DNA of 64,000 nt from Eledone cirrhosa (lineage: Eukaryota). The position numbers and the translations under genes were made by a program. The stretch lies in NCBI GenBank assembly GCA_964016885.1, contig OZ024743.1, forward strand, positions 303,056,001-303,120,000, written 5' to 3'. Shown in pieces: positions 1,227-63,205 of the stretch (positions are counted from its first letter, which is position 1; every line of letters begins with the position of its first letter). The notes below the pieces were generated by a model. The model worked only from the letters and a program-made list of their open reading frames with translations. It had not been told where the DNA came from and searched no databases.

Positions 1227-2764
1227 TTAGGTATCATTCCTAGAGCGCCTACAACCACTGGTATTGTTTTAGTTCTCAATTTCCACATTTTTCCAATTTC
1301 TATATTTTCAAATGTTTTTATAGATACATTCTTGTCTATTGGAACAGACATATCAATTAGCAGGCATACCCTCATTTTAAAGTCCTCTAGTATTATATCA
1401 GGTCTATTTGCATCTATTTTTCGTTCTGTTTGGATGCTAAAGTTCCACAAGATTGAGATGTAATCTTTTTCAAGTATGGGAGGTGGTTGATGCTCCCACC
1501 AATTCTTTTGATGGGGCAGGTCAAAATGCTTACACATTATCCAATGTATGTATTGTGCAGCTCTGTCATGCCTGTTTAGGTATTCGGTTGGAGCTATAGG
1601 ACTGCACATTGAATTTATATGGTCAATGGTCTCTGGTTGTTTTTTACATACACCAGCATAATGGGCTGCATCCAATGGTTTTGTCATAGACTTTATATCC
1701 ATGTTTTGTTTCATTGAGCATTTTACTTAATGGTATAAGTGCGATGCAGTATAAAAGCGGTGATAAAGAGTCACCCTGAAAAATTTCACAATTAATATAC
1801 ACTTCTCCAGCTTCCAGCGATCTTGTTTCACCATTCAAAAGGAGTGTCGTTTTCCATGTCTTCATACTGAATGACAAAACCTCCTGACAAAGGAGATATT
1901 TTGAAAATCTCTAAACATTTTTCAATCCAACTGCGTGGCTAACTATCGAATGCTTTTGTATACTCTATCCAAGCAATTGCTAGATGTTTGTGTCTATTAT
2001 GACAATCATCCAGTATCATTTTGTTAACCAAAAGCTGATGCTTACAGCCATATGAGCCTCGTTTACACCCTTTCTGCTCCATGGGAAATAGGTCATTTGT
2101 TATCAGGTGGTGATATGTATATTCAGTTAGGACTGATGTTAACATTTTATACATTGTGGTCAAGCAAGTAATCGGTCTGTAATTTTTGGGATTGTTTGTC
2201 TCATTCTTCGGAAGCAGGAATGTAATGCCGTTAACTAGACATGATGGTATCTTTTCTGGCTCCTTATCTATGTCATTGTAAAGTTGGGCTAACAGCTCAT
2301 GAGACTCTGTGAAGGCATTTATCCAAAAATTTAGTATTTTGTCTTTTCCTGAGGATTTCCATTTGCTGGTTTTTCTAAGAGCCAAACGCAACTGTTCAAC
2401 TGTTATATTGTCCTATGTTTGTTCCTGAAGGTGAGCTGTATTTTTCATTTGTCTGTCTATCCATGAGGCATGTATATTATGACATTTTTCTTCGGCCCAG
2501 ATCTTTTCCCAGAATTCTTGCACTTTCTCCTTGGGTGGTATTGTTTAGCAGTTATTGTTGACTTACCAATTTTTCTGTAGAAGTTTCTTTGGTTGTTTTT
2601 GAACATATTATTATCCTTATAGAATCTAGATCGTTTTTCAAAGCGCCTTATACGAGCAGCTTTGGCCGACACTTTTTGCTTGATTATTTCTATCAGCATG
2701 TCTATGTCACTTGTTGATTTTATACTGTACTTTCTTTTCAATTTTCTAAGTTCAGTTTGTTTAA
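1227..2764 (-). mobile_element. R4/Dong-like family B fragment with an internal deletion of about 1 kb, truncated at both ends
   Basis: NYRPITCL, EQKGC, FQGDSLSPLL, RHD and RPDII motifs; near-identical to 5036-8828 but jumps at about 1675 from the equivalent of about 6742 to about 5762. Confidence 0.92.
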
Positions 2765-3860
2765 TCGCCTAACCGTCGTGCCTTGCCCCTGTCCGCGCCT
2801 CATCAAGTTGGAACGGCTCCTCTTCAAATTCTTGTGGAGGGGACAAGTTCCGTTGGTGAGGCGGTCCATCTGCTGCCAGCACCCTCTACGCGGAGGGCTG
2901 GACATGCATTGGCTAATGATGCGCAGACATGCGTTGAGGCTGCGACATCTCCAGATATTCTGCCTCAATGGTGAACAGGTGTGTTCGCCGTTTATCAGAC
3001 GGGTCTTTCCGCAGCTCATTTCTTTGACTGAGCTGCAGTGCTGGGTCAAGAGGAGACCGAGACTGGGTGACTGGCACCTGGAATGTTGCCAGGCACTCAC
3101 TGCCCTCTACCGAGCGGGGAATGCGATCAGTGGAACTTCCACTCTCGAGTTCTATAGAGGATTAGTGGTGGGCAAGTGCGATGACGCACTCGGAGAAGCT
3201 TTGGGCCTCGACGAAGTCGAACTTACCAGTCTGTACCGGAGGACTTTTGAGCCGGGGACGATGGACAATTTCCAGAAATCCCTCGCTTGGCAGTGCTACC
3301 GGGGGGCACTGCCGGTTCGGGTTAAACTCTACAGGCACGGAAGTGCTGTCAGACGGACCTGCCCAAGTTGCGCACAGAACGACGAAACCGTTCTGCACGC
3401 ACTTGTCCAATGTCCGTGCATTACTGACCTGTGGTGTTATGTCGAACAGCTACTGTCGCGTGTGGAACGAATCCGGCTATCGGCCGAGTCCATAGTGAAG
3501 ATTGAGCCGTACATTTGCTAAAAGGTGGGTGAATGTGGCGAGAATGGTTCGTGTGAATGGGCCTACTCTGACTATGCGCCTATAGGCTGGCTAACTTGAG
3601 GAGAGGAGTGCTCTCCTAGGTGCCCTAGAAGCGCAGGGTGGTTCAGGATTGGTGTCGTACCCGAATCTCCCCAGGGTCGTCCACCCCCTATCGGAGAATT
3701 TATTTTGTTATATTTATGCATAGTTTATTTTATATATTTATATTTTCATTGTTAAATTAGTCTTGCCATTGTGCACTTTTATTCGACCTTATTGTAAACC
3801 CCACTGTCCCTGTCTTTGTATTGTCCCCTACATGTCGGCCCTTGTGCCTAATAAATGAAA

Positions 3861-3862
<2 letters not shown>
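2764..3862 (+). mobile_element. Tx1/L1-clade LINE 3' fragment (post-RT region, C-terminal Cys/His motif, 3' UTR), subfamily 1
   Basis: ORF 2757..3521 with FLWRG, GGLDM and CPSC..ETVLHALVQC; ends with AATAAA and an (ATT)12 tail. Confidence 0.9.

Positions 3863-3898
<36 letters not shown>
3863..3898. repeat. (ATT)n microsatellite, Tx1 tail and insertion target
   Basis: Directly visible; separates two Tx1 fragments. Confidence 0.98.
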
Positions 3899-5019
3899 GT
3901 CGCCCGCTACGTGGAGGGCTGGGCATGCCGTGGCTGATGATGCGCAGACACGCGCTCAGGCTACGACATCTCCACCTCTTCCTCAACGGTGATCAGGTGT
4001 GGTCGACGTTTGCTAGACACGTTTTTCCCCAGCTCGTCTCCTTGACGGAGCTGCAGTCCTGGGTCAAGCGAAGACCGAGAGGGAGCGCTTGGAGACTGGA
4101 ATGTCTTCAGGCGCTCACATCCCTCGACCAATCGGACAATGTGATCGGTGGAAACTCCACCTTGGCGTTCTGTAGGGGATTAGTGACGGGGAAGTGCGAC
4201 GACGTACTTGGAAAAACTCTAGGCGTCGACGAAAATCAACTAGCCAATCTCTTCCGAAGGACTTTCGGGCCGAGGCCTATGGACAACTTCCAGAAATCCC
4301 TGGCCTGGCAGTGCTACCGGGGAGATTTGCCAGTTCGGGATAAACTCTACAGGCACGGAAGTGCCGTCAGCCGGGCATGTCCCAGATACGCACAGGGCGA
4401 CGAAACCGTCCTGCACGCACTCGTCCAGTGTCCGAGCATTGCTGACTTGTGTGTTTATGTCGAACACCTGCTGTCACGTGTAGGACGGATCCAGCTATCA
4501 GCTGAGTCCATCGTGAGGATTTCCCCACCCTCTTCCTTTAGCCGGGAAGGGCAGGCAGTTTTTATGTGTCTGGTGGCCATGGCGAAAGAGATAGTAAGGT
4601 GGACACGTTTGAAAGGGCTGAAGACGAGCACTTACCTCTTCGGTGATACCCTGATTAACTTTTTCAAATTTCATTTGAAAAGGAAAATCAGGGTAGAGAG
4701 GGAAGTGCTCTCTTCCCAGCATTTTGTTGAAAGATGGGTGAGAGAAGCAAGTATGGCCTGAGTATGTGTCTGTAAAATATAGGTGGAAAACTGGGAGAGG
4801 GCACTTGCCCTGGTGGTCAGGTCACTGTGGTCTTTTAATGGGCTTTCTCCACAAATATCTCTCGGAAGTCTCCCCCCTATTGGGGAATTTTTCTTTGTTA
4901 TTTTATTACATCCTCTGTTTTTTATTACACGCAGAAATGCCCATTTGTACCGTCCTGTATTGTCCTGTACTGTCCTTAATGTTTACTTTATGTTTACTCT
5001 TGTGGTTAATAAAGAAAAC
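3899..5019 (+). mobile_element. Tx1/L1-clade LINE 3' fragment, subfamily 2
   Basis: ORF 3925..4761, highly similar to 50385-51247; 3' UTR followed by an (ATT)n tail. Confidence 0.9.
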
Positions 5020-5179
5020 ATTATTATTATTATTACAGTTGTATTTATCTTGCTTTATATTCATACGAGTTATCACCAAGTCACAACCAGTGACCTCAAG
5101 AGACAACAAGGTCCGCCATGTTCAGGAAAGAACATACATATTCACACATGCATCTTTAGTGTTTAGACTTGTGATGTAC

Positions 5180-8100
5180 TTATATTGACTGAATCTTCCT
5201 TAGTATATGGGCAGTTCCCATTAGTACTATCTTTTGTATTTCCCCTATACGCGGGTTTCCTGGGATTTGCGATATGTAATCATTAGACCCCTTAGGTATC
5301 ATTCCCAGAGCGCCTACAACCACTGGTATTGTTTTAGTTCTCAATTTCCACATTTTTCCAATTTCTATCTCCAGGTCCTTATACTTGCTCAATTTTTCAA
5401 ATGTTTTTATAGATACATTCTTGTCTATTGGAACAGACATATCAATTAGCAGGCATACCCTCTTTTGAAAGTCTTTCAATAATATATCAGGTCTGTTTGC
5501 ATCTATTTTTCGGTCTGTTTGGATGCTAAAGTTCCACAAGATTGAGATGTGATCATTTTCAAGTATGGGAGGTGGTTGATGCTCCCACCAATTCTTTTGA
5601 TGGGGCAGGTCAAAATGCTTACACATTATCCAATGTATGTATTGTGCAGCTCTGTCATGCCTGTTTAGGTATTCGGTTGGAGCTATAGGACTGCACATTG
5701 AAATTATATGGTCAATGGTCTCTGGTTGTTTTTTGCATACACGGCATAATGGGCTGCACCCATTTTTTATTATGTTGGCTTGGTAATTTTTTATTGGCAG
5801 ACACTGATGTTGTGTTGATATAATCAGTCCTACAGTCTCCGATTTCAGTTCAGAAGATGCCAACCACTGATGGGTTAAAGTTTTGTCAATATAAGGATTG
5901 TTAGCTTGCTCTAGGTATTTTCCGTACAGAGGCTTTTCTTGCCATTTCTTAGCCAGTTTCTGTAGCAGTTCTTTCTTTGCAGTTACTTTTACCTGCTTTG
6001 CTTTCTCTGTGTTTTCCATTTCAGCAGTAAATGGGACTTCTGAAATTTGTAGTCCATTACTGTATCTTTTTGCATCTTTTGTAATGGAATATGATCTTTT
6101 GATGCTTTCGTGTTTCAAAACGAGTTTGATCATCCAATCATGTGATTCCCTTAGATATGTAGATAATCCAATTGTTGCAGTTTTCAACGCAATGTCTAAC
6201 TGGATTAACCCACGTCCTCCTTCTTTCCTAGGGAGATATATTCTATCTATATCTGCTTTAGGGTGATGCATTCTGTGCATGGTTAAGAATTTTCGAATTT
6301 TTGTATCGAGCCTACGGATCTCTGTGCTTGACCAGTTGATGACATTGTAACTGTAGGTTACTACTGGTATGGCAAGCGTGTTTATGGCATCGATCCTATT
6401 CCTTGCATTCAATTCAGTTTTTAAGATTGCTCTCACTCTGCGATAACATTCCTTCCTTATCCTTTCCCTCATTGTCGAGTGCTTGATTCCGTCTCCTTCA
6501 CAAACACCTAGATATTTGTAAGTTTTTTCTTGATCAAGTTCTCTTATCACGTTCCCCCGATCAAGATTAATGTCTGAACTCTTCAGCAGCTTTCCTCTGG
6601 TGAACGTTGCTTTGGCGCATTTATCTAGTCCAAACTCCATTTTAATGTCATCACTGAACTGCTTCATAGTGGATAATAGCCCTTGCAATTGTTCATCATT
6701 TTTTGCAAATAGTTTCAGGTCATCCATGTAGAACAGGTGATTAATGGTTTTGTCATAGACTTTATATCCATGTTTTGTTTCATTGAGCATTTTACTTAAT
6801 GGTATAAGTGCGATGCAGAATAAAAGCGGTGATAAAGAGTCACCCTGAAAAATCCACAATTAATATTAACTTCTCCAGCTCCCAGTGATTTTGTTTCACT
6901 ATTCAAAAGGAGTGTCGTTTTCCACGTCTTCATACTGAATGACAATAACCTCCTGACAACGGGGGATACTTTGAAAATCTCTAAACTTTTTTCAATCCAA
7001 CTGTGTGGCAAACTATCAAATGCTTTTTTATAATCTATCCAAGCAATCGATAGATTTTTGTGTCTATTATGACAATCTTCCAGTATCATTTTGTTAACCA
7101 GAAGCTGATCCTTACAGCCATATGTGCCTCGTTAACACCCTTTCTGCTCAATGGGAAATAGGTCATTTGTTATCAGGTGGTCATATGTGTATTCAGTTAG
7201 GACTGATGTTAACATTTTATACATTGTCGTCAAGCAAGTTATCGGTCTGTAATTTTGGGGATTGTTCGTCTCATCATTCTTCGGAAGCAGGAATGTAATG
7301 CCGTTAACTAGCCATGAAGATATCTTTTCTGGCTCCTTAACTATTTCATTGTAAAGTTGGGTTAACAGCTCATGAGACTCTGTGAAGGCATTTATCCAAA
7401 AGTTTTGTATTTTGTCTTTTCCTGGGGATTTCCATTTGCTGGTTTTTCTTAGAGCCAAGCGCAACTGTACAACTGTTATATTTTCCCATGTTTGTTCCTC
7501 AAGGTGAGCTGTATCTTTCATTTGTCTGTCTATCCATGTGGCATGTATGTTATGAACTTTTTCTTCGGCCCAGATCTTTTCCCAGAATTCTTGAACTCCC
7601 TCCTTGGGTGGTATTGATTTAGCAGTTATTGTTGACTTACCAATTTTTCTGTAGAAGTTTCTTTGGTTGTTTTTGAACATATTATTGTCCTTATAGAATC
7701 TAGATCGTTTTTCAAAGCGCCTTATACGAGCAGCTTTGGCCGACATTTTTGCTTGATTATTTCTATCAGCCTGTCTATGTCACATGTTGATTTTATACTG
7801 TACTTTTTTTTCAATTTTCTAAGTTTAGTTTGTTTAACATGTTCACCTACTTTATAGTTTGTTAAAATTTCTATGTCAGATCGGAGAAGGTTTATTTGGC
7901 GATTGATGTTCTCTTACCAAGTAGATTTCTTGTGGGAATTCCTTTCTTTTTTCATCTTCACTCCACATAAGTGAGTGGTGACTTTAGCCGATGCATAATA
8001 GAGATGATTTAAATCAGTAATGTTTAGTTTGTTTGTGATGATAATGTTTTTGGGAATTATGTTAGTCTTGTGTATTATCTTTTGGTTCTGTTTGGAGTTC

Positions 8101-10865: not shown

Positions 10866-11298
10866 AACACAAACACTTTTCGTTTCGGCCGATCCATCAT
10901 GATATTTTTCAAGTTTCCATTGGATGGATGGTGAGGGTGGTGAGATATGTACTGCCTCTCAGTACATTTGCTAAATGGTGAGTAAATGTTGAAAGAATGG
11001 CCCGTGTGAGTGGGCCTACTCTGAGCATGCACCTGTTGACTACTCATTTTGTGGAGGAGAGAGTACATTTCCCGGGTACCCGCGAAGTCTCGGGTGGTCC
11101 TGGATTGGTGCTATACCTGAATCAACCCTACATCGTTACCTCCTATTGGGGTATGTAATTTGTTGTATTTTTATTGTTATTTTGTTATAGCAATTTAAAT
11201 ATTTTACTCGTTATATATTTAAACTCCCAATGTCCCTGTCTATCGTATTCTTCTCTATATGTCGGCCCTTGTGGCCAATACAGAATTTATCATTATTA
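10866..11298 (+). mobile_element. Short Tx1 3' fragment (subfamily 1-like)
   Basis: Similar to 3510-3862; ends gtcggcccttgtggccaata...cattatta. Confidence 0.8.
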
Positions 11299-13370: not shown

Positions 13371-13544
13371 CACATCCCTGACCTGCTCTATGTCATCATG
13401 TTTAACTCTATTTTACAGATGATAATAATAATAAAAAAATTATTTAAGAAAATGATGACTGACATCATGATTTTGTGTAGCTTTTACGATATTTCAAGTC
13501 GAAAAAATTACAAGAATGGTAATGGAAGTACTAAAAGAGAAATA

Positions 13545-13731
13545 ATTGTTTCTACTGTTGGCACAAGGCCACCAATTACCCAGTACATTACCGGTACTTT
13601 ATTTAATCGACCCCGTAAGGATGAAAGGCAAAGGTAACCTCAGCGGGATTTGAACTCAGACTGTAAAGGGACGTAACTATGCTGGAAAGATTGGTGTTCG
13701 ACCGTCTACCGATACTGCCAATTCACCACCC
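13545..13731 (-). mobile_element. Full-length tRNA-derived SINE
   Basis: Reverse complement of 39760-39950; A-box-like tggcagtatcgg, B-box gagttcaaatcc, core gcctttcatccttacggggtcgat. Confidence 0.9.
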
Positions 13732-13747
13732 TTACTAAGAGAAATCA

Positions 13748-13848
13748 TTTGTTCTACTTTAGGCACAAGGCCAGCAATTACCAGTACATTACTGGTACTT
13801 TATTTTATCGACCCCGTAAGGATGAAAGGCCAAGTTAACCTCGGCGGG
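13748..13848 (-). mobile_element. 5'-truncated SINE in tandem with the previous copy
   Basis: Core plus tail; bounded by repeats of tactaagagaaat. Confidence 0.85.
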
Positions 13849-15230
13849 AAACTTACTAAGAGAAATAATAAAGCACATTTAGAGACAGTAAAAATTGAAA
13901 TTTTTATTAAATGGATTCTGCTATTACACGAGGGGGGTAATATAGCTGTTATGTAAGCAATTTACGTATGCGTTAATTTCAAAATAAAGAACAGTGACAA
14001 AAAAGATTGAGACACGAAATAGAATTTAGAAATATAAAATGAATTATAAATTAAATAAATATATTAGATAATTGTGAGACAACGCTGTTTAAAAAATACA
14101 AATATATAACTTTAAATTATTTGCCTTGTGACTTTTTCTTTCTTTTTTTGTAGTTATACTTAATGTGCTAAAATCTCAAATCTTTGTGGCTAAGCAACAG
14201 AAATATTTTGGCCAATATAATTTAAATGTCTGCAACTTTTGAGAAATAGTATTGATTATTACAGTATAACAATTGTATATTTCTTCTGTAGTTATAAAGT
14301 ATGAAAACATAGTTATTTACTCTAGATAGTTAAGCATAGCATTTCAGTTTATATGGACAGGGTAAGTCTTGTGACCTTCCTTAATCAAGGAGGAAACAGC
14401 TCGAGATGGAGGTGTTTAAGGAAGCTAGCCGACTTGGCTCAGCACTATATGATTATTATCATGTTAGTAGTGGGTTTATGTCTGGCTTCACAATCAAGGG
14501 CATTACCATTTCAATTTATATGTTGTTATGTTAAAATAGAATATTTATAGTGAATTAAGAATCGCGTATTCTCTAGATATTTGAAAATATATAAATGTAT
14601 GCTGGGTAAATACGTTTTAGCTTACAATACCAAGTTTAAATGTTTAAGGAAACAACAAATTATTAAATCAGAGGAAATCACATGTCTTGCAGACACAATA
14701 TAGAATCTGGATGGGTAAAAACAGTATATCATGTAGCTGACTCACAATGCAAAAACAATTTTAGTAACCTGTAGTATTGATCCTAATGTTGGCATGTAAG
14801 CAGTTCACGGATACTGAAATAATATGTATTTTACTTCTTCTAAGTATAAATCACAAGCATTTTAATTATGTTGCTTGCTCAGGCTTGCTCGGGCTTGTCC
14901 CTTGGTGTTAAACATTAGCCTATGGTCATTCTTGACCGAGGTAGGACGTTACCCTTTAACTGGAACTGAAAATCAAAAGGTGCTTTTTTTATTGGCATAA
15001 TGCCCTTATGAAGTATGAGAGATAAATAGATAGATGTGTATGTGTGTCGATTTGCATGCGTGCGTCTTTGTATGTGCAACGGTGAATGCCTGTGCTTGAT
15101 ATAATGTGTGCATCATCTCTGTACCAACGTTTTTATTTACACATATGTACGTAGAATATATACATAATGTCGATTTCCTATTCTCAATGAAATGTATTTT
15201 GTTGAATCTTCGAAGGAAGAAGATATTTCA

Positions 15231-38000: not shown

Positions 38001-39736
38001 GGATGCCTCCTTATGTCTATCAATTTCTTCACCTTCATTTCCCACTGTCTCATTTGCCTGATATACTCCACTCTCCATGTCCAACTTAATTTCTCTGCTC
38101 AGTTCCTCCAGTTCCAACTCGCTTATCCATACATTAGTTCTTATTACCCCAGCCTTACCGGCCAATATTTGTTCACCTAATTTAAATAGATCAATCTCGT
38201 TCCAGGTGTTATGCATCCGTTTCCTGTACCCTTTTTCCATACTCTTCAGGTAACATTTACTGACGGTTCTATTCAATTATATCATCCAGTTGGTTCTTGT
38301 ACGATTCCTTATTCTTCCTCCAACACCAGCAGTATTTGGTTGACAGTCAGGTCCCTGGTGCGGGGCCAGGGATCACTTGCTTGGTGAGAGTCTTTCACAT
38401 GACGTTCCAGTCTCCTTTTCACCGTTATTAGAACTGTTTAGGTTCGACATTTAAACTCTTATATCGAGGATTAGTTCATGTATGGTTACATAAGCAGCGG
38501 TGTTTTTAGCCTGACACCATCATGTTATAGACGAAAATAAATAAATGAACAAAAACATAAAGAAAATAAAAACAAGTTTCATTGTAATGTTTGAATGTCT
38601 GACTTAGTTTTTTCCTTTTTTTGTTTTTCAAGGCCAGTAACATCGGTTACTAGTATTGTTGCTGCTGTTTTTGATTTTAGCTAAGCTAAGCTCATAGTCA
38701 TAGCAACGAGGGAGGTATGGGGTGTTGCATTCAAACCTTTACAAATTTGTTTTTCTTTTAATGTTGCGTTTGTTTTTGTCTGCGTTCTGTTCTGTAATGT
38801 TTCGACTTGTTACTTATCTTGCCTTTCATCCTTACGGGGTCGATAAAATAAAGTACCAGTAATGTACTGGGTAATTGCTGGCCTTGTGCCAAAAAGTAGA
38901 AACAATTATTATGTGAGTTCAAATCTCGTCGAGGTTAACTTTGCCTTTCATCCTTACGGGGTCGATAAACTATAGTACCGGTAACACACTGAGTAATTGC
39001 TGGCCTTGTGCCTAAAGTAGAAACAATTATGTAAGCGGTCGAAAATTAAAGTACCAGTAATGTACTGGGTGATTGCTGGCCTTGTGCTAAAAGTAGAAAC
39101 AATTATTATGCAAGTTGACATCGTTTAAACTAAACATTTTGAGAGAGCTTAGAGAAACAACGACAATAATTATTATTATTATGGTGTTGTTGTTGGCTAT
39201 ATTGTTGGCTATATTAGTGCGACTGTTGTCAATGTTGGGATGTTCAACATTTTCTTTTGACCAGGTTATTAAATCAGTCTATTTATATATGTTGGTAGCT
39301 TCCTCGTTTATAGTCTTGTGTACTACTAACTTCCCTCTCTTAACAGAAGGTAGTGAGGGAATAGCGGTGGTAGCAATGATGGAGTGGTGACGGTGGTGAT
39401 GGGGTAGTGGTATTGTAGTGATTGTTGGTTTGTCTCTAGCTAAAGTTTGTGGTAGTGGTGGTTGTGGTGGGGTGTTGGTGGTTAACGTATTTGGCTGTTG
39501 TTTTCTTCCATTTGTGACCAGTAGTAACCATTTTCCTTGTTTAATATAACATTTCTAATACAAAATTAAATATTTTAGCCTTATGTCACGGTGTAGGTTC
39601 TCACTTCCTGAGAGTAAAGACTGGTACCTTATGTCCTATTTGTAACAGAAATTACAATTGTTTTAAATATGTAAAAAATCAAAGACTCACCGGAGCGATT
39701 CCATAACACTCTATCCACCTGGTGCATAATCTTCCC
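35009..39736 (-). mobile_element. R4/Dong-like family A element, apparently full length but decayed; ORF about 35110-38450, leader about 38450-39736
   Basis: Ordered ORF fragments GYRKRMH..W, PDEQKGC, FQGDSLS, FMDD, RHD and HNRPDL; TTA tracts at both ends. Confidence 0.9.
38818..39108 (+). mobile_element. Three head-to-tail 5'-truncated SINE copies inside the Dong-A leader
   Basis: Three successive gctggccttgtgc..aaagtagaaacaattat tails ending at about 38910, 39030 and 39108. Confidence 0.88.
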
Positions 39737-39759
39737 TTATTATTAATATTATTAAAAAA

Positions 39760-39950
39760 GGGCGGTGGATTGGCAGTATCGGTAGAGGGCCGCACGTAAT
39801 GTTTTCCAGCATAGTTACGTCCCTTTACGATCTGAGTTCAAATCCCGCCGAGGTTGACTTTGCCTTTCATCCTTACGGGGTCGATAAAATAAAATACCAG
39901 TAATGAACTGGATAATTGCTGGCCTAGTGCTTAAAGTAGAAACAATTATT
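39760..39950 (+). mobile_element. Full-length SINE
   Basis: gggcggtggattggcagtatcgg head, B-box, core and tail; flanked by ttattattaatattatta-like duplicated target sequence. Confidence 0.92.
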
Positions 39951-39968
39951 AATATTATTATTATTATT

Positions 39969-42419
39969 CTTTGAGTCTCAGTCATTGATGTTAGTTAACT
40001 GGAAAGTTTGTTGAAATGAATATCAAGCAACTACCTGCAGCCTCAGATATTCAGGACGTATCGGATAGTTATTGCTGTTCCCAGCAAGCATGCCTTTTGA
40101 AGCGTTCCAAAAAGCGTGAAGAGGCTAATTTTCTTTAACCATTCCTGGAAACTTTTTGAGATAGTACCTAGTGCGCCTATGACAATCGGGACCACTTTCA
40201 CTTCATGGCAGTTCCAAATCCTTTTTACCTCCCACTTTAAGTCCTGGTATCGGTTAATTTTCTCCCTCTCCTTCTCTTGCACTCTCGTGTCGAATGGGCA
40301 GGCCACATCCACAATCAGGTATGATTTTTTTCTTTGTCCACAACCACCAGGTCAGAACTATTGTGTTCCAGTTTCTTGTCCGCCTGTAACCTAAAATCCC
40401 ACAGCACCTTCACCTGGTCGTTTTCTATCACCGGCTCTGGCTTATGCTCACACTACTTCTCAGAATGTGGTAAATTGTTTACTTTGCATAGGTGCAAGTG
40501 GATCACCCTGCCCATCACATCATGACTCCAGCCCTTATAGTGAGTCTGGGCTAGTTGTTTACACTCAGATACAATGTGAGCCACAGTCTCCTCTCTCCAC
40601 ATATCCTGCACAGTGGGCTAGCCTCCTCCTTGTAAATATGGTGATTCAACCACTTCGTTTTGAGGGCCCGCTCTTACGCAGCCATTAACATTCCTCCTGT
40701 AGCGTTTTTAAGGTCTCCTCTTTTCAACCAGTTCCATATCTGTGGATCTCTGAATTCAGTTTTCTCAAAGAAGATACGCTGAGTGGATTTTTCCTGAAGG
40801 CTGCTCTTTCCTCCTTGGACATCCTCTGGTCTATGGTGCTCTCCTTCAGTACAGTTCTGAGCATTGGCTCCTTACTATCAGTCACGTATTTGTGTAGGTT
40901 GTTTTTCTCCATCTGAACACAGTCATCTATGCTGATAAGACATCTTCCACCTTCAGATCTCCTTAAGTAGAGTCTATCGACATCACTCCTCTTGTGGAAC
41001 AGGTTGTAGATAGTCAATAGCTTCCTAGTCTTCCTATCCATTTCTTTTTGTTCAGCAACATTCCATCTCAAAATTCCCGCACTGTACCTAATAATAGACA
41101 TAGCTCGGGAATTTTTGAACTTATGGCATTCCTACTGTTCAGATGTGACTTTAATACGCTCCTTACTCTCCGAATGTATTCAGTTCTTATCAATTCCTTC
41201 ATTTTTTTTGTTCTTGATGTCATAAGCCTCCAGAACACCCGACTACTTGTATCCTTCTTCAGTCTCAATTTCCTTTATCATCTCACCTGTTGGTACCTGG
41301 ATTCCGTTACTTCTGCTCAATTTACCCCTCTTCATCACAAGGACTCCGCACTTACTAATACCAAATTGCATACATATATCATTGCTGAAAATACGGACAG
41401 TGTGAACAAGCACATCCAACTCCTCCTCACTCTTCTCGAAGAGCTTAAGATCGTCCATGAAGGGGAGGTGATTGATGGTAAGCTATCCCTTTCCCAACTT
41501 GTATTCTGCTCTCACTTTTCGCAGTATACTGCTCAGAGGCATCAGAGCAAGGACAAACAACAGAGGGGACAGACTATCTCCCTGGAAGATACCTCTCTTG
41601 ATCTTCACGCTTTCCAAGGATTCTCCAGCTGATGTTAACTCTGTTTTCCAGGACTTCATACTTTTGCCCAACAACTGTCTGATGTTATCTGCCACCTTGA
41701 AAATCTCCAGACTTTTGGTGATCCAAGAATGAGGCACCATGTCAAATGCATTTTTCTACACTATCCATCCCATGGCAAGACCAGTGTGTCTCCTCTTGCA
41801 ATTCTTCATTACCATCTTGTCAATAAGTAACTGGTTCTTTGTACCACGGGACTTCTTTCGGCATCCTTTCTGTTCGTCCGGTAACAAGTTGTTTGTGTGG
41901 AGGTGATGGTAGATTTCCTCAGACGTAATGCTTGTCAACAGTTTCCACATTACAGACAGACATGTGATAGGTCTATAGTTGGTAACATCATTACCCTTGA
42001 TTCGGTCTTTCATTATCAGAACTGTGGTACCTTTTGTCAACCACTCTGATACCTCACCTGACATCAAGCTGTCATTGAACATGGTTGTCAGTTTCGGGTG
42101 GAGGGAAATTATATTTTCAATCCAATACCCCTGCACACCATCTGGGCCTGGTGATTTCCAGTTGGTTAGTTTTTGGCCTGCCCCTTAGGAGTTTCAACTG
42201 TGATACTCAAATCAGTTTGTTGGTGTGCCTGTTCACTAATCTCCTTCTGTACTGTCTCAATCCACACTGCCTGGTCATTATGTTTAACATCCTGCTCCCA
42301 TATTCCGATCCCGAATGTTTTGGTTTGTTCCGCCTCAGGGATCAAGTTGTTGCCTCTTTCTTTCCCTTCAAGCTGTCCAAACAATATCTTCTGGTTGTTG
42401 TCAAACATGCGGTTCTGTA
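39969..42419 (-). mobile_element. R4/Dong-like family A, 5'-truncated (RT to RLE and 3' UTR), frameshifted
   Basis: ORFs 40043..42136 with RT and RLE motifs. Confidence 0.92.
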
Positions 42420-42439
42420 TATTATTATTATTATTATTA

Positions 42440-44786
42440 CAGTTGCATTTATCTTGCTTTATGTTCATACGAGTTATCACCAAGTCACAACCAGTGACCT
42501 CAAGAGACAACAAGGTCCGCCATGTTCAAGAAAGAACATACATATTCACACATGCATCTTTAGTGTTTAGACTTGTGATGTACTTATATTGACAGAATCT
42601 TCCTTAGTATATGGGCAGTTCCCATTAGTACTATCTTTTGTATTTCTCCTATACGCGGGTTTCCTGGGATTTGCGATATGTAATCATTAGACCCCTTAGG
42701 TATCATTCCCAGAGCGCCTACAACCACTGGTATTGTTTTAGTTCTCAATTTCCACATTTTTCCAATTTCTATCTCCAGGTCCTTATACTTGCTCAATTTT
42801 TCAAATGTTTTTATAGATACATTCTTGTCTATTGGAACAGACATATCAATTAGCAGGCATACCCTCTTTTGAAAGTATTTCAATAATATATCAGGTCTGT
42901 TTGCATCTATTTTTCGGTCTGTTTGGATGCTAAAGTTCCACAAGATTGAGATGTGATCTTTTTCAAGTATGGGAGGTGGTTGATGCTCCCACCAATTCTT
43001 TTGATGGGGCAGGTCAAAATGCTTACACATTATCCAATGTATGTATTGTGCAGCTCTGTCATGCCTGTTTAGGTATTCGGTTGGAGCTATAGGACTGCAC
43101 ATTGAAATTATATGGTCAATGGTCTCTGGTTGTTTTTTGCATACACGGCATAATGGGCTGCACCCATTTTTTATTATGTTGGCTTGGTAATTTTTTGTTG
43201 GCAGACACTGATCTTGTGCCGATATAATCAGTCCTTCAGTCTCCGATTTCAGTCCAGAGGATGCCAACCACTGATGGGTTAAAGTTTTGTCAACATCAGG
43301 ATTGTTAGCTCGCTCTGGGTATTTTCCATACAGAGGCTTTTCTTGCCATTTCTTAGCCAGTTTCTGTAGCAGTTCTTTCTTTGCAGTTACTTTTACCTGC
43401 TTTGCTTTTTCTGTGTTTTCCATTTCAGCAGTAAATGGGACTTCTGAAACTTGTAGTCCATTACTGTATCTTTGTGCATCTTTTGTAATGGAATATGATC
43501 TTTTGATGCTTTCGTGTTTCAAAACGAGTTTGATCATCCAATCATGTGATTCCCTTAGATATGTAGATAATCCAATCGTTGCAATTTTCAACACAATGTC
43601 TAACTGGATTAACCCACGTCCTCCTTCTTTCCTAGGGAGATATATTCTATCTATATCTGCTTTAGGGTGATGCATTCTGTGCATGGTTAAGAATTTTCTC
43701 ATTTTTGTATCGAGCCTACGGATCTCTGTGCTTGACCAGTTGATGACATTGTAACTGTAGGTTACTACTTTATGGCAAGCGTGTTTATGGCATCGATCCT
43801 ATTCCTTGCATTCAATTCCGTTTTTAAGATTGCTCTCACTCTGCGGTAACATTCCTTCCTTATCCGTTCCCTCATTGTCGAGTGCTTGATTCCGTCTCCT
43901 TCACAAACACCTAGATATTTGTAAGTTTTTTCTTGATCAAGTTTTCTTATCACGTTCCCCCGATCAAGATTAATGTCTGAACTCTTCAGCAGCTTTCCTC
44001 TGGTGAACGTTGCTTTGGCGCATTTATCTTGTCCAAACTCCATTTTAATGTCATCACTGAACTGCTTCAGAGTGGATAATAGCCCTTGCAATTGTTCATC
44101 ATGTTTTGCAAATAGTTTCAGGTCATCCATGTAGAACAGGTGATTAATGGTTTTGTCATAGACTTTATATCCATGCTTTGTTTCATTGAGCATTTTGTTT
44201 CATTGAGCATTTTGTTTCATTTTGTTTCATTGAGCATTTTACTTAATCGTATAAGTGCGATGCAGAATAAAAGCGGTGATAAAGAGTCACCCTGAAAAAT
44301 TCCACACTTAATATTAACTTCTCCAGCCTCCAGTGAGTTTGTGTCACTATTCAAAAGGAGTGTCGTTTTCCATGTCTTCATACTGAATGACAAAAACCTC
44401 CTGACAACGGGGGATACTTTGAAAATCTCTAAACATTTTTCAATCCAACTGTGTGGTAAACTATCAAATGCCTTTTTATAATCCATCCAAGCAATCGATA
44501 GATTTTTGTGTCTATTATGACAATCTTCCAGTATCATTTTGTTAACCAGAAGCTGATCCATACAGCCATATGAGCCTCGTTTATAACCCTTTTCTTTTTT
44601 GAATACAAAATATATAATACAAAATTGAATATTTGAGCGATATAACAATATAATATGTATCCGAAATTTTATGCGACTTGATTCGGTGGTTTATGCAACA
44701 TTTCACAATTGATTTAAATATGTTAAAAATCAAAAACTTACGGGAACGATTTCATGACCTTCTACCACCTCGTGCGTCTTCTTCCG
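42440..44786 (-). mobile_element. R4/Dong-like family B, internally deleted copy retaining the 5'-terminal 200 bp
   Basis: 42440-44590 matches 5036-7140; 44590-44650 matches the leader end at 61450-61518. Confidence 0.9.
44177..44240. repeat. Tandem amplification of a 17-bp unit (tttgtttcattgagcat) inside the RT
   Basis: Three full units and one partial unit here; single unit in the other Dong-B copies. Confidence 0.9.
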
Positions 44787-51247: not shown

Positions 51248-51555
51248 ATTAAAGGTGGAAAACTGGGAGAGGGCACTTGCCCTGGTGGTCAGGGTCACTG
51301 TGGCTTTTTAATGAGCTTTCTCCATGAATGTCCCTCGGAAATCTCCCCCAATTGGGGAATGTTTTCATTGTTCTATTATTACATCCTCTATTTCTTGTTT
51401 TTTACACTCATAAATGCCCATTTGTACCGCCCTGTATTGTCCTGTACTGTCCTTAATGTCTACTTTATGTAGACCCTTGTGTTTAATAAATAAAGCATTA
51501 TTATTATTATATATTATTATTATATATTATATATTATATATTATTATTATTATAT

Positions 51556-55400: not shown

Positions 55401-56713
55401 TACCGCCTCACCATCGTCCCTTGCCCCGGCCCAACTCTCACCAAAACGGAGCGCCTTTCTTCCGCTTTTTGTGGAAGGGACGCACTCCCATGGTCAGACA
55501 ATCCATCTGCTGACAAAACCCGTTGCGTGGAGGTCTGGGTATGCCATGGATGATGATGTGCAAACATGCGCTGAGGCTGCGATATCTCTAGTGCTTCCTT
55601 GACGGTGAACAGTTGTGGTCGCCGTTCACCAAGCACGTTTTTCCACAGCTCGTCTCCTTGACTGAGCTGCAGTCCTGGGTCACGAAATGACCGAGGGATA
55701 GCGCTCGGAAACTGGAATGTATCCAGGCGTTCACCGCCCTCTGCCAGCTGGGCACCAGTATCGGTGGATCATCCACCTCGGCGTTCTATAGAGGACTAGT
55801 GGAGTAGAAGTGCGACGACGGTCTCGGAGAGATCTTGGGCGTCGAAGAAGATCAGCTGTTTGCTCTCTTCCGGAGAACTTTCAGCCCGGGTCCTATGGAT
55901 AACTTCCAAAAATCCCTGGCCTGGCAGTACTACCGGGGAGAGTTGCCAGTTCGATATAAGCTCTACAGGCACGGAAGTGCCGTCAGCCGAGCCTGTTCGA
56001 TATGCGCGTAGAGAGACGAAACCGTCGTGCACGCCCTCGTTCAGTGCCCGAGCATTGCTGACTTGTGAAGCTATGATGAACAGTTGCTCTCGCGTGTAGG
56101 ACTGTTCCGGTTATCGACTGAACCCATTGTGCAGATGGTCCCGCCGTATTCCTTCGAGGTGGAAGGGCATGGTTTTTTTTATCTGCCTGGTGGCCATGGC
56201 GAAAGAGATTGCGTGGTGGCCAAGGTTGAAAGGGTTAAAGACAGACACTTTCCTCTTCGGCGAATCCCTAATTAACTTTTTCAAATTTCACTTGAAGAGG
56301 AAAATTAGGGTGCAGAGGCAAATACTGCCTTCTAGCAAGTTTGTTGAAAGGTGGGTGAATGTAGCGAGAATGGTCCGAGTGAACGGGACCGCTCTGAATA
56401 TACGGCTGTAGTTTGAGAAATGGAAAAATTGAGAGTAGGCGCTTGCCCTGGTGGTCAGGTTGCCGTGGTATTTTGTGTGGTTTTCGCCAGGAGCAACGCT
56501 CGGAGGTTCCCCCTATTGGGGAATTTTTCATTGTTTCAATTTTCATTTTTAATGTTTATATATATATATATATATTTCTATGTCTTTGTTTTCTTTTCTT
56601 ATATAAAAAATAAAAATCTTTACACGCACAAAACCCACATTGTACCGTCCTGTCTCGTTCTGTGCCGTATGTAATGTTTTTCTTGATGTCAGCCCTTGTG
56701 GGCAATAAATAAA

Positions 56714-56715
<2 letters not shown>
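52481..56715 (+). mobile_element. Tx1/L1-clade LINE with both ends present, large internal deletions (about 54100 and 54860), decayed
   Basis: MAVLRIGSTNVRGL, SAYADD, WAERKLTLKGR and FKFHLKRK; (ATT)n on both sides. Confidence 0.9.
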
Positions 56716-56755
<40 letters not shown>

Positions 56756-61995: not shown

Positions 61996-62120
61996 TTGCC
62001 ATTCTGAGTTCAAATCCCGCCGAGGTTGACTTTGCCTTTCATGCTTACGGGGTCGATAAAATAAAGTACCAGTACTGTAATGGATAATTGCTGGCCTTGT
62101 GCCTAAAGTAGAAACAATTA
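61993..62120 (+). mobile_element. 5'-truncated SINE
   Basis: cccttgccattctgagttcaaatcccgccgagg...gtagaaacaatta. Confidence 0.9.
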
Positions 62121-63205
62121 TTTATTTCAGCATTCAGATCATTGTCTGCTTCGGATGGTTCCTCGGTTCTCTCAACCTCATCACCTTCATTTCCCACTGG
62201 CTCGTTTGCCTGGCATACTCCACTCTCCATTTCCAACCGAATCTCTCTGCTCAGTTCCTCCACTTCTAGCTCGCTTATCCACCCATTAGTTCTTATTATC
62301 CGAGCCTGCCCGGCCAATTTTTGTTCATCTAATTTAAATAGACCAATCTCGTCCCAGATGTTATGCATCCGTTTCCTATAGCCTTTTTCCTTGGGGTTAC
62401 TCTTCAGGTAACATTGCATAACAGTTCTATTCAATTCTTTCGTCCACTGGTTCGACAATTAAACACTCTTATCGAGGATTAGGGAAAGTATGGTTAAATA
62501 ACCACTGGTGATTTCATCAGTCCCGGTGATTTTTGTGTGGCACTATCACGCTGTAGACGAACATAAATAAACAAACAAACAAACAGGCCAAAAAAAATCC
62601 CCAAAAAGAATAAGCATAAGTTTCATTGTAATGTAATGTTTGACTGTCTGACTTAGTTTTTCCCTTCCCTTCTCTCTCCTTCTGTTTGTCTTTCTCTTCA
62701 TTTTTCTTTTCTTTACGTCTTTCGTTGTTGCTGTGCTGCTTTGATTTTGATTTTTGTTTTTTTGATTTTTTGACCGGGTCATCAATTCAGTTTATTTATA
62801 TATTTTGAGGCCTTCCTCTTTTAGTGGGGACACTACGATGCATGGGTTAGCAGGAGGGAGTGGGATAGAATAGCGGCGGTAGTGATAATGAGGCAGTGGT
62901 GGTGGTGGAGGTGGTGCTGAGCTAGTAGTACTTAGCAGGAGGTAGTGGGAGAGAATAGTGAGGCAGTGGCCGTGGTGATGTGATCGTATCAATGTAGTGA
63001 TGGTGTTGAAGTTGAAGCAGAAATAGAAGTTGAGGCAACTTGACTAGAGTTTTTAGCGTGGTAGTGGTGGTGGTGGTCTTGGTGGTGAAATTAACTTCTC
63101 TGTCCACTTAGCCATTTAGCTATTTAGCTATTTAGTCATTTTGCCATTTTCCTCCTTTTCGACTCTAACATTCCTGATCCCAAATTAAATATTAATATTG
63201 TTTAT
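62121..63205 (-). mobile_element. R4/Dong-like family A 5' part (leader and ORF N-terminus)
   Basis: QWTKELNRTVMQCY...GYRKRMH; collinear with 37970-39580. Confidence 0.85.

What the first reader, a model, noticed from the sequence alone, without database searches (positions are those of the whole stretch)
39760..39950. tRNA-derived SINE shares its 3' stem-loop and tail with the Tx1 LINE (candidate Tx1-mobilised SINE)
Seen: the SINE end ggccttgtgcctaaagtagaaacaattatt (e.g. 39003-39030, 62093-62121) aligns with Tx1 ends ggcccttgtgcctaataaatgaaatcattatt (3837-3868), ggcccttgtggccaata (11264-11280) and gcccttgtgggcaataaataaatcattatt (56692-56721). The stems vary but still pair around a (C)UUGU loop. 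Both have ATT tails on the same strand. Established: stringent SINE/LINE pairs share 3' stem-loops; partners are mostly CR1, L2 or RTE, and Tx1 partners are rare (crocodilian SINEU, from memory). Inference: this abundant SINE is a Tx1 parasite and inherits its ATT preference. The central gcctttcatcc..ggggtcgataaaa..gtacca block resembles the conserved Meta-type SINE domain as I recall it.
Basis: partly seen in the sequence, partly recalled or inferred. Interest (0 to 1): 0.75.

Follow-up and report, generated by a model that had tools for sequence, protein, structure and literature searches.

The report
SINE borrowing an ATT-targeting LINE's tail
An abundant short repeat (SINE) in an octopod-like genome ends in the same small hairpin and ATT-type terminus as a group of long L1/Tx1-like jumping genes and sits on ATTAT target sites, so it is likely copied by those LINEs' enzyme; this is an ordinary kind of SINE-LINE partnership with an unusual partner group.

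Summary
The element at 39760-39950 is a full 191-nt SINE: 12 fragments in the window and at least 1,752 genome candidates. Its 3' end shares three features with five LINE 3'-end types in the window: a 3-4 bp stem closing a CUUGU loop, a 12-13 nt A-rich linker, and ATTATT.

The similarity is modest for the young subfamily (SINE-A) and strong for an older one (SINE-B), which scores 34 against a null of 12.5±2 (0 of 2000 shuffles). The stem covaries: G-C in SINEs, C-G or A-U in LINEs.

28 of 30 copies have 6-30 bp duplications, and 27 of 28 of these start with ATTA, preceded by a pyrimidine. The LINEs encode APE, RT and zf-RVT domains, and their closest solved relative is human L1 ORF2p. They lie between (ATT)n runs in 18 of 23 copies.

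The SINE is therefore probably mobilised by this LINE group. Three claims are unconfirmed:
- Tx1-clade membership was not tested by phylogeny.
- The Meta-domain claim is not supported.
- A tRNA origin was not confirmed by tRNA models.

The scan had already reached the same reading on other pieces of this genome. This is a new member of a known kind.

The parts
39760..39944 (+). Focal full-length SINE body (young subfamily SINE-A), ending ...GAAACA
   Evidence: Best genome copies are 95-96% identical. 30 sampled copies differ pairwise by 2.2%.
39739..39754 (+). 5' copy of the target-site duplication (ATTATTAATATTATTA), followed by 5 A before the SINE
39945..39960 (+). 3' copy of the target-site duplication.
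39834..39846 (+). B-box-like motif (GAGTTCAAATCCC) of the presumed Pol III promoter
   Evidence: Read from the sequence. No tRNA was called by ARAGORN or Rfam.
39862..39899 (+). Conserved central block (GCCTTTCATCC..GGGGTCGATAAA..TACCA)
   Evidence: Shared with SINE-B and with a SINE that has another tail. Not Meta-like.
39920..39932 (+). 3' hairpin position in the focal copy. It is degenerate here (loop CTAGT, 3' stem GCTT).
   Evidence: compared with alignment A1.
38819..39107 (+). Three 5'-truncated SINE copies head to tail, each starting right after the ATTAT of the previous one
   Evidence: hits 38819-38910, 38911-39030, 39037-39107.
62003..62122 (+). 5'-truncated SINE-A copy with an intact hairpin: TGGC 62092-62095, CTTGT 62096-62100, GCCT 62101-62104, linker 62105-62116, ATTATT 62117-62122
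13541..13849 (-). Two SINE copies in tandem on the minus strand (13541-13731 full, 13743-13849 truncated), stem variant UGGC/GCCA
2718..3862 (+). 3' part of a young LINE-a copy: ORF2 C-terminus with zf-RVT, 3' UTR, hairpin 3837-3849 and linker 3850-3862
   Evidence: 93% aa identity to the full-length copy L017.
3863..3898 (+). (ATT)12 run after LINE-a. The next truncated LINE starts directly after it.
4995..5025 (+). 3' end of a LINE-d-like copy (stem TACT/GGTT, mutated from the family's AACC/GGTT)
11264..11297 (+). 3' end of a LINE-b-like copy (stem GGCC/GGCC, 15-nt linker)
51472..51502 (+). 3' end of a LINE-e copy (GACC/GTTT). The body at 48134-51238 matches LINE-a ORF2 at 56-65% aa identity.
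56691..56755 (+). 3' end of a LINE-c copy (AGCC-CTTGT-GGGC, linker to 56715) and its (ATT)n run 56716-56755

Best explanation
The 191-nt repeat at 39760-39950 is a SINE whose last ~30 nt carry the same CUUGU-loop hairpin, A-rich linker and AUUAU end as the 3' ends of a group of ATT-repeat-associated L1/Tx1-like LINEs, and it is likely mobilised in trans by their ORF2 protein, which would recognise that hairpin and prime on a nicked ATTAT target.

Shown here:
- The 3' module is shared.
- The stem covaries.
- SINE target-site duplications start with ATTA(T) after a pyrimidine.
- The LINEs are flanked by (ATT)n on both sides.
- The sampled SINE and LINE copies are equally young.
- SINEs and LINEs insert into each other's ATT ends and form head-to-tail stacks.

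Inferred:
- The SINE is transcribed by Pol III from A/B-box-like motifs.
- The LINE endonuclease nicks the bottom strand at 5'-ATAAT|R.
- The freed ...ATAAT-3' end anneals to the AUUAU at the RNA's 3' end, and reverse transcription starts at the last linker base.
- Each insertion re-creates ATTAT at both ends, so insertions seed new targets.

SINE-A is a shortened derivative of the older SINE-B, whose tail is closest to LINE families c and d (12-nt linker).
For: Tail homology:
- SINE-B against LINE-c scores 34, and against LINE-a or LINE-b 31 (null about 12.5, sd 2; 0 of 2000 shuffles).
- SINE-A against LINE-a scores 22 (8 of 2000). Against the LINE-c GGCT variant it scores 26 (0 of 2000).
- The best hit of the SINE tail on a whole 5,913-nt LINE is the LINE's terminus.

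Hairpin:
- On 63 distinct ends, 86.9% of stem cells pair against 68.6% in shuffles (0 of 500).
- Pair 11-19 is G-C in 30 rows (the SINE type) and C-G in 24 (the LINE type). Pair 10-20 is GC 41, AU 12, GU 7.
- The hairpin appears in the minimum-energy fold of 5 of 6 ends.
- Spacing from stem to ATTATT is 12 nt in the SINEs and in LINE-c/d, and 13 nt in LINE-a.

Target:
- 28 of 30 SINE-A copies have a duplication found by script, median 19 bp. 27 of 28 start ATTA and 23 of 28 start ATTAT. Base -1 is C or T in 26 of 28.
- ATTAT occurs at 0.5% of window positions.
- LINE-a has an ATT run at the 5' flank in 18 of 23 copies and in 8 of 8 full-length copies. All 23 have ATT repeats at the 3' end.

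Age: pairwise divergence is 2.2% for 30 SINE-A copies and 2.3% for the last 400 nt of 24 LINE-a copies.

The LINE:
- ORF2 is 1140 aa with Exo_endo_phos, RVT_1 and zf-RVT domains.
- The best solved relative is human L1 ORF2p at E 4e-56, against R2 at 1e-18.
- LINE-c/d ORF2 ends are 53-89% identical to LINE-a, most of them 65-78%.

Control: the R2-like LINE with an (AAT)n end at 5035-6859(-) scores 13-14 against the SINE tails, which is the null level.
Against: - The young SINE-A tail is only weakly similar to the young LINE-a tail: 55 of 500 shuffles match it against the whole LINE.
- The commonest SINE stem has 3 pairs. 26 of 63 rows are unpaired at the outer position.
- The folds are no more stable than shuffles, with z from -1.2 to +0.4.
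- The A1 rows were pre-selected for C-TTGT-G and are related, so only a handful of independent changes underlie the covariation.
- The LINEs carry long ATT runs (median 7 units). SINE-A has a median of 2 and lands on dispersed ATTAT sites, so the target profiles are not identical.
- SINE-A matches a hairpin module in the 5' UTR of a LINE-d-like family (score 30) better than any LINE 3' end, so the direction of borrowing is open.
- 5 of 23 LINE-a copies lack an ATT run at the 5' flank.
- Other LINE clades of this genome were not surveyed.
- There is no experimental evidence.
Confidence: 0.7

Rival explanations
1. Relaxed recognition. The LINE enzyme uses any RNA that ends in AUUAU(U) and can anneal to the nicked ATT target, as L1 uses poly(A). 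The hairpin would be a leftover of common descent and would not be needed.
For: The hairpin is tiny and not thermodynamically distinctive. The commonest SINE-A variant has only 3 pairs. Every duplication starts with the ATTA microhomology.
Against: The CUUGU loop and the paired stem are kept across at least five LINE families that are only 53-89% identical in protein, and across the SINE subfamilies. Both-side changes are seen. The spacing to the terminus is also kept.
Confidence: 0.15
2. A different partner. The SINE is moved by another LINE clade that also uses ATT/AAT repeats, such as the R2/R4-like elements with (AAT)n ends, or by a family not sampled here. The likeness to the L1/Tx1-like ends would be chance plus the shared microsatellite.
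For: R2-like LINEs with (AAT)n ends lie in the same repeat runs. Other clades were not surveyed. The PMC13282606 table lists Dong-R4, CR1 and RTE among recently active octopus LINEs.
Against: The R2-like 3' end scores at the null level against all three SINE tails, and its repeat reads AAT, not ATT, on its sense strand. In about 370 kb of held DNA, the non-SINE instances of the hairpin motif that I printed and checked lay at ends of the L1-like group or in its 5' UTR module; the rest of the scan's non-SINE hits are unexamined low-complexity matches. The SINE-B match has z about 10.
Confidence: 0.1
3. Reverse or sideways borrowing. The hairpin-plus-ATTAT module belongs to a short non-autonomous element. 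Both the SINE tail and the 5' UTR of one LINE family picked it up, so the SINE tail does not descend from a LINE 3' end.
For: SINE-A scores 30 against the 5' UTR module (L048:1265-1306) but 20-26 against LINE ends a-d and 16 against end e. The shared stretch extends upstream into CCCAAAAA..TT.
Against: SINE-B, the older form, matches LINE 3' ends (score 34) better than the module (score 24). This rival changes the history and not the likely mobiliser.
Confidence: 0.05

Closest known systems
SINEU mobilised by Tx1-Mar LINEs in crocodilians (PMC4494074; abstract and passages read)
   Same: A SINE is tied to target-specific Tx1-type LINEs because it shares their insertion preference.
   Different: SINEU heads come from U1/U2 snRNA and the target is a Mariner transposon. 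In the passages I read, the link rests on target preference, not on a shared 3' hairpin. Here the target is ATTAT/(ATT)n and a covarying hairpin is shared.
ZmSINE2/3 with LINE1-1_ZM (maize, sorghum) and SINEX-3_CR with L1-1_CR (Chlamydomonas): stringent pairs in the L1 clade (PMC3472496; passages read)
   Same: An L1-clade LINE and a SINE share a 3' end with a small stem-loop, variable stems with compensatory changes, and a conserved loop.
   Different: Those are plants and algae, the ends are poly(A), and the loop and flank motifs differ. Here the host is an animal (octopod-like), the ends are ATT, and there is target specificity.
UnaL2/UnaSINE1 of eel, the tested model of stringent 3' recognition (cited in PMC4494074 and PMC3747384; the original paper was not read)
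   Same: A shared 3' stem-loop plus a short terminal repeat used for priming.
   Different: That pair belongs to the L2 clade and was shown experimentally. Here the evidence is sequence only.
Kibi, Koshi and crocodilian Tx1 families that target (TC)n, (TTC)n and (TTCC)n/(TTTC)n (PMC4494074 passages)
   Same: L1-like LINEs inserted specifically in a microsatellite.
   Different: The repeat unit differs (ATT). No SINE passenger is described for them in the passages read. Clade membership of the present LINE is untested.

Membership tests
Stringent-type SINE/LINE pair (common 3' tail) | The SINE 3' end is homologous to the partner LINE's 3' end. | tested here: met
   SINE-B against LINE-c scores 34 against a null of 12.5 (sd 2), 0 of 2000 shuffles. 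SINE-A is weaker at 16-26. The hit lies on the LINE terminus.
Stringent-type SINE/LINE pair (common 3' tail) | A conserved 3' stem-loop with compensatory changes. | tested here: met
   86.9% of cells pair against 68.6% in shuffles (0 of 500). 3 of 4 pairs change on both sides. Caveat: the rows were pre-selected on the loop motif and are related.
Stringent-type SINE/LINE pair (common 3' tail) | Trans-mobilisation that depends on the tail. | not testable with these tools
   This needs a retrotransposition assay.
Tx1 clade of non-LTR retrotransposons | An L1-type ORF2 with APE endonuclease, RT and a C-terminal zinc motif. | tested here: met
   Pfam finds Exo_endo_phos, RVT_1 and zf-RVT. The best solved relative is human L1 ORF2p at E 4e-56.
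Tx1 clade of non-LTR retrotransposons | The RT domain groups with Tx1 references in a phylogeny (RTclass1-type test). | not tested
   No named Tx1 or L1 reference could be obtained. The database hits are unnamed or 'hypothetical'.
Tx1 clade of non-LTR retrotransposons | Target-specific insertion. | tested here: met
   18 of 23 LINE-a copies and 8 of 8 full-length copies lie between ATT runs. Ends of families c and d give 12,105 pattern hits against 1 for the control.
tRNA-derived SINE | A 5' head recognisable as tRNA-like. | tested here: not met
   ARAGORN finds 0 genes in the window and in 18 loci with SINE copies. Rfam gives no match even at E up to 10. Only A/B-box-like motifs can be read by eye.
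tRNA-derived SINE | A short, non-coding, abundant element with target-site duplications. | tested here: met
MetaSINE superfamily | A 66-bp Meta-domain directly after the tRNA head. | tested here: not met
   Compared by eye with the BivaMeta-SINE1 and BivaMD-SINE1 alignments in the supplement of PMC4824008. Two of four core motifs are absent from that file, and the other two occur once each in unrelated contexts. No computed alignment was made.
CORE-SINE superfamily | The CORE central domain. | not tested
   The resemblance is recalled only. Papers class octopus SINEs as tRNA-Core and OR2 as a CORE SINE (PMC8967140 and PMC4758252, passages). By eye, the likeness to the bivalve CORE SINEs in the supplement is weak.

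The most novel reading that the evidence does not exclude
An animal L1/Tx1-like LINE group recognises its RNA by a specific 3' hairpin with a CUUGU pentaloop and primes on ATTAT. The most abundant SINE of an octopod has copied that signal. The SINE inherits the LINE's target choice, re-creates its own landing site at each insertion, and builds self-seeding stacks. The same hairpin module has also been recruited into a LINE 5' UTR.
Probability: 0.45. Interest if true: 0.6.

Novelty: new member of a known kind. Interest (0 to 1): 0.45.

Why it matters
SINEs make up a large share of octopus genomes: 11.6% in O. vulgaris according to PMC13282606. In the papers I could search, no mobiliser is named for them, and one paper points to an RTE element as the active LINE (PMC9115989, passages).

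A named partner with a defined RNA signal and a defined target motif would make SINE activity in these genomes testable. It would also add an animal case to the few L1-clade LINEs thought to recognise a specific 3' end. Finally, it explains why ATT runs here are crowded with stacked repeats.

Tried and rejected
Naming the LINE clade from databases failed:
- Two word-index searches gave unnamed hits, 'hypothetical protein [Argonauta hians]' at 69% identity, a turtle protein and a coral protein.
- The cluster look-up gave no names.
- The ESM Atlas gave only generic RT clusters.

No tRNA or other RNA family was found in the SINE.

Literature searches for the core motifs found nothing relevant. 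Searches for an octopus SINE partner, or a Tx1 family with an ATT target, found no statement of either (passages). The supplements of PMC4494074, which list the Tx1 targets, could not be read and may bear on whether an ATT-targeting Tx1 is already described.

The Meta-domain idea was rejected.

A PDB search with the minus-strand ORF 42584-43798 gave nothing. Earlier notes for this genome by place returned nothing, and a look-up by sequence returned only an unrelated hit.

Full report
**What is at the coordinates**

Window 39760-39950 holds one full copy of a 191-nt repeat. Blastn finds 12 full or partial copies in the 64-kb window. A search of the window's own genome (3.0 Gb) lists 41 matches from 1,752 first-look candidates, the best at 95-96% identity.

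A motif scan adds two more LINE ends of the same design, at 4995-5025 and 51472-51502. The focal copy's own hairpin is mutated: its loop reads CTAGT.

**The LINE**

A C-terminal ORF fragment upstream of the 3868 end matches 144 scored places among 56,860 first-look candidates in the genome. A full-length copy (L017) is about 5.9 kb. ORF1 is 419 aa, has one CCHC knuckle and has no Pfam family. ORF2 is 1140 aa and carries Exo_endo_phos, RVT_1 and zf-RVT domains.

Its best solved relative is human L1 ORF2p at E 4e-56 over residues 6-854. R2 proteins reach only 1e-18. Copies are 98.1-98.7% identical to L017.

The other end types belong to the same group. ORF2 C-termini of families c and d are 53-89% identical to LINE-a, most of them 65-78%. 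The pattern for their ends occurs 12,105 times in the genome against once for the reversed control.

I could not place the group in the Tx1 clade. No named reference was reachable. The best named relative is a hypothetical protein of Argonauta hians at 69% identity, which fits the 'octopus-like' guess in earlier notes of this scan. Papers report L1-Tx1 as the only L1-like LINE group among recently active octopus LINEs (PMC13282606, table passage). That is indirect support only.

**The shared tail**

All ends have three parts: a 4-nt stem closing a CTTGT loop, an A-rich linker, and ATTATT. The linker is 12 nt in the SINEs and in LINE-c/d, 13 nt in LINE-a and 15 nt in one copy.

For the young SINE-A, the best local alignment of its last 45 nt on the whole 5,913-nt LINE falls on the LINE's last 30 nt. 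The score of 22 is reached by 55 of 500 shuffled queries against the whole LINE. Against the LINE end alone it is reached by 4 of 5000, or 14 of 5000 without ATTATT.

An older, longer subfamily (SINE-B; about 90% identical copies, 1,737 candidates) matches far better:
- Score 34 against LINE-c and 31 against LINE-a or LINE-b, with a null of 12.5 (sd 2) and 0 of 2000 shuffles.
- Score 29 against LINE-d (0 of 2000) and 19 against LINE-e (57 of 2000).
- Its last 11 nt equal the LINE's.

SINE-A is SINE-B with an internal deletion and a changed terminus.

**The hairpin**

On an alignment of 63 distinct ends, 86.9% of stem cells pair. Shuffles give 68.6% (0 of 500 as high) and slid partners give 17-56%. 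Three of four pairs change on both sides:
- Pair 11-19 is G-C in 30 rows (SINE type) and C-G in 24 (LINE type).
- Pair 10-20 is GC 41, AU 12, GU 7.

There are limits to this evidence:
- The rows were chosen for C-TTGT-G.
- The rows are related, so few independent events underlie the counts.
- The outer pair is unpaired in 26 of 63 rows.
- The folds are no more stable than shuffles, although the hairpin appears in 5 of 6 minimum-energy folds.

**Targets**

In 30 young SINE-A copies a script finds target-site duplications in 28, with a median of 19 bp and a range of 6-30. The other two have one with an indel, seen by eye.

The duplication begins directly after ...GAAACA. 27 of 28 start ATTA and 23 of 28 start ATTAT. 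The base before is C or T in 26 of 28. ATTAT fills 0.5% of window positions. The SINE's 'ATT tail' is therefore target sequence shared with the RNA end, not a free tail. Two pairs of the sampled copies have the same flanks and may be duplicates.

LINE-a copies have an ATT run at the 5' flank in 18 of 23 cases, and in 8 of 8 full-length copies. All 23 have ATT repeats at the 3' end, with a median of 7 units against 2 for SINE-A. One locus (L091) had no detectable 3' end and was dropped.

One LINE copy (L090) sits on a target with only ATTAC(C)A yet carries four extra ATT units. The LINE RNA therefore probably ends in its own (AUU)n.

SINEs and LINEs land in each other's ends. Three of 23 LINE-a copies directly follow a SINE end. 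Two of 30 LINE-c/d ends are followed by a SINE. The window holds three truncated SINEs head to tail at 38819-39107.

**Age**

Pairwise divergence is 2.2% among 30 SINE-A copies and 2.3% among the last 400 nt of 24 LINE-a copies. Both sets are best matches to a query, so they are biased towards young copies.

**A control and a rival**

A minus-strand LINE at 5035-6859 ends in (AAT)n. Its ORF matches R2-type proteins (E 4e-11) and not L1. Its 3' end scores 13-14 against the SINE tails, which is the null level. It uses the same microsatellite in the opposite orientation.

I could not survey all LINE clades. In about 370 kb of held DNA, the non-SINE instances of the motif that I printed and checked lay at ends of the L1-like group or in a 5' UTR module of one of its families.

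- tRNA models do not recognise the head.
- The core does not resemble the Meta-domain printed for bivalve MetaSINEs.
- From recall it looks like the CORE domain, which matches how papers class octopus SINEs (PMC8967140 and PMC4758252, passages). I did not test this.
- The rarity of Tx1 partners agrees with what I read: SINEU with Tx1-Mar by shared target (PMC4494074), and stringent L1-clade pairs only in maize, sorghum and Chlamydomonas (PMC3472496).
- Searches for an octopus SINE partner found no statement of one.

**Verdict**

This is a real SINE-LINE pair of the known 'common tail' kind, with an uncommon partner group and an inherited ATTAT target. Mobilisation itself is inferred. Earlier notes of this scan reached the same reading on other pieces of this genome.

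Noticed in passing
window 5035-6859 (-): A LINE whose ORF matches R2-type proteins and not L1. It ends ...CAACTGT followed by (AAT)n. It shares the ATT/AAT microsatellite with the L1-like LINEs but in the opposite orientation, so each group's end can serve as the other's target.
   Followed up: partly
window 39961-42157: The focal SINE sits in the ATT run next to CTTTGAGTCTCAGTCATTGATG... The same sequence follows LINE ends in L017, L036, L038, L047 and L055. It appears to be the reverse complement of the 3' end of a minus-strand RT-bearing element whose RT is 25% identical to LINE-a. A PDB search with a nearby ORF gave nothing.
   Followed up: partly
L048:1225-1460 (-), also L054 and L061: The 5' UTR of a LINE-d-like family starts right after an (ATT)n run with GGCGACCTACG... 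About 190 nt in, it holds a hairpin GGGC-CTTGT-GCCC, then a linker and ATTATTAT, just before the ORF1 ATG. This looks like a captured SINE-like tail module.
   Followed up: partly
G000:C1:11275336-11296595, 16301006-16311764, 37102971-37212466: Co-oriented LINE 3' ends of different subfamilies recur at about 5-6 kb spacing. This suggests head-to-tail LINE stacks built in ATT runs, or duplicated blocks.
   Followed up: no
L103 (G000:C18:17847975-17854575): A LINE-a copy truncated at reference position 211 is preceded by the reverse complement of the LINE 5' end. This looks like a 5' inversion.
   Followed up: no
L029 (print): A SINE with the same head and central block but a different 3' part (...CCCACCACCCACCACCTACACAAAGG...). 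This suggests tail swapping among SINEs that share this core.
   Followed up: no
L035:1462-1526, L042:1462-1526, L042:966-1030: In minimum-energy folds the terminal CAUUA (LINE) or CAAUUA (SINE-A) pairs with an upstream UAAUG or UAAUUG, enclosing the hairpin. SINE-B lacks this pairing. It may be chance in AT-rich sequence.
   Followed up: no
LINE linkers, e.g. window 3850-3855 and 56704-56709: The LINE linker contains AATAAA, a polyadenylation signal, 6-7 nt before the ATT run. The SINE linker lacks it (AAAGTA or ATAGTA).
   Followed up: no
window 3899-5025: A 5'-truncated LINE starts directly after the (ATT)12 of the LINE-a copy and ends with a LINE-d-like terminus, so two LINEs lie head to tail within 2.3 kb.
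   Followed up: partly
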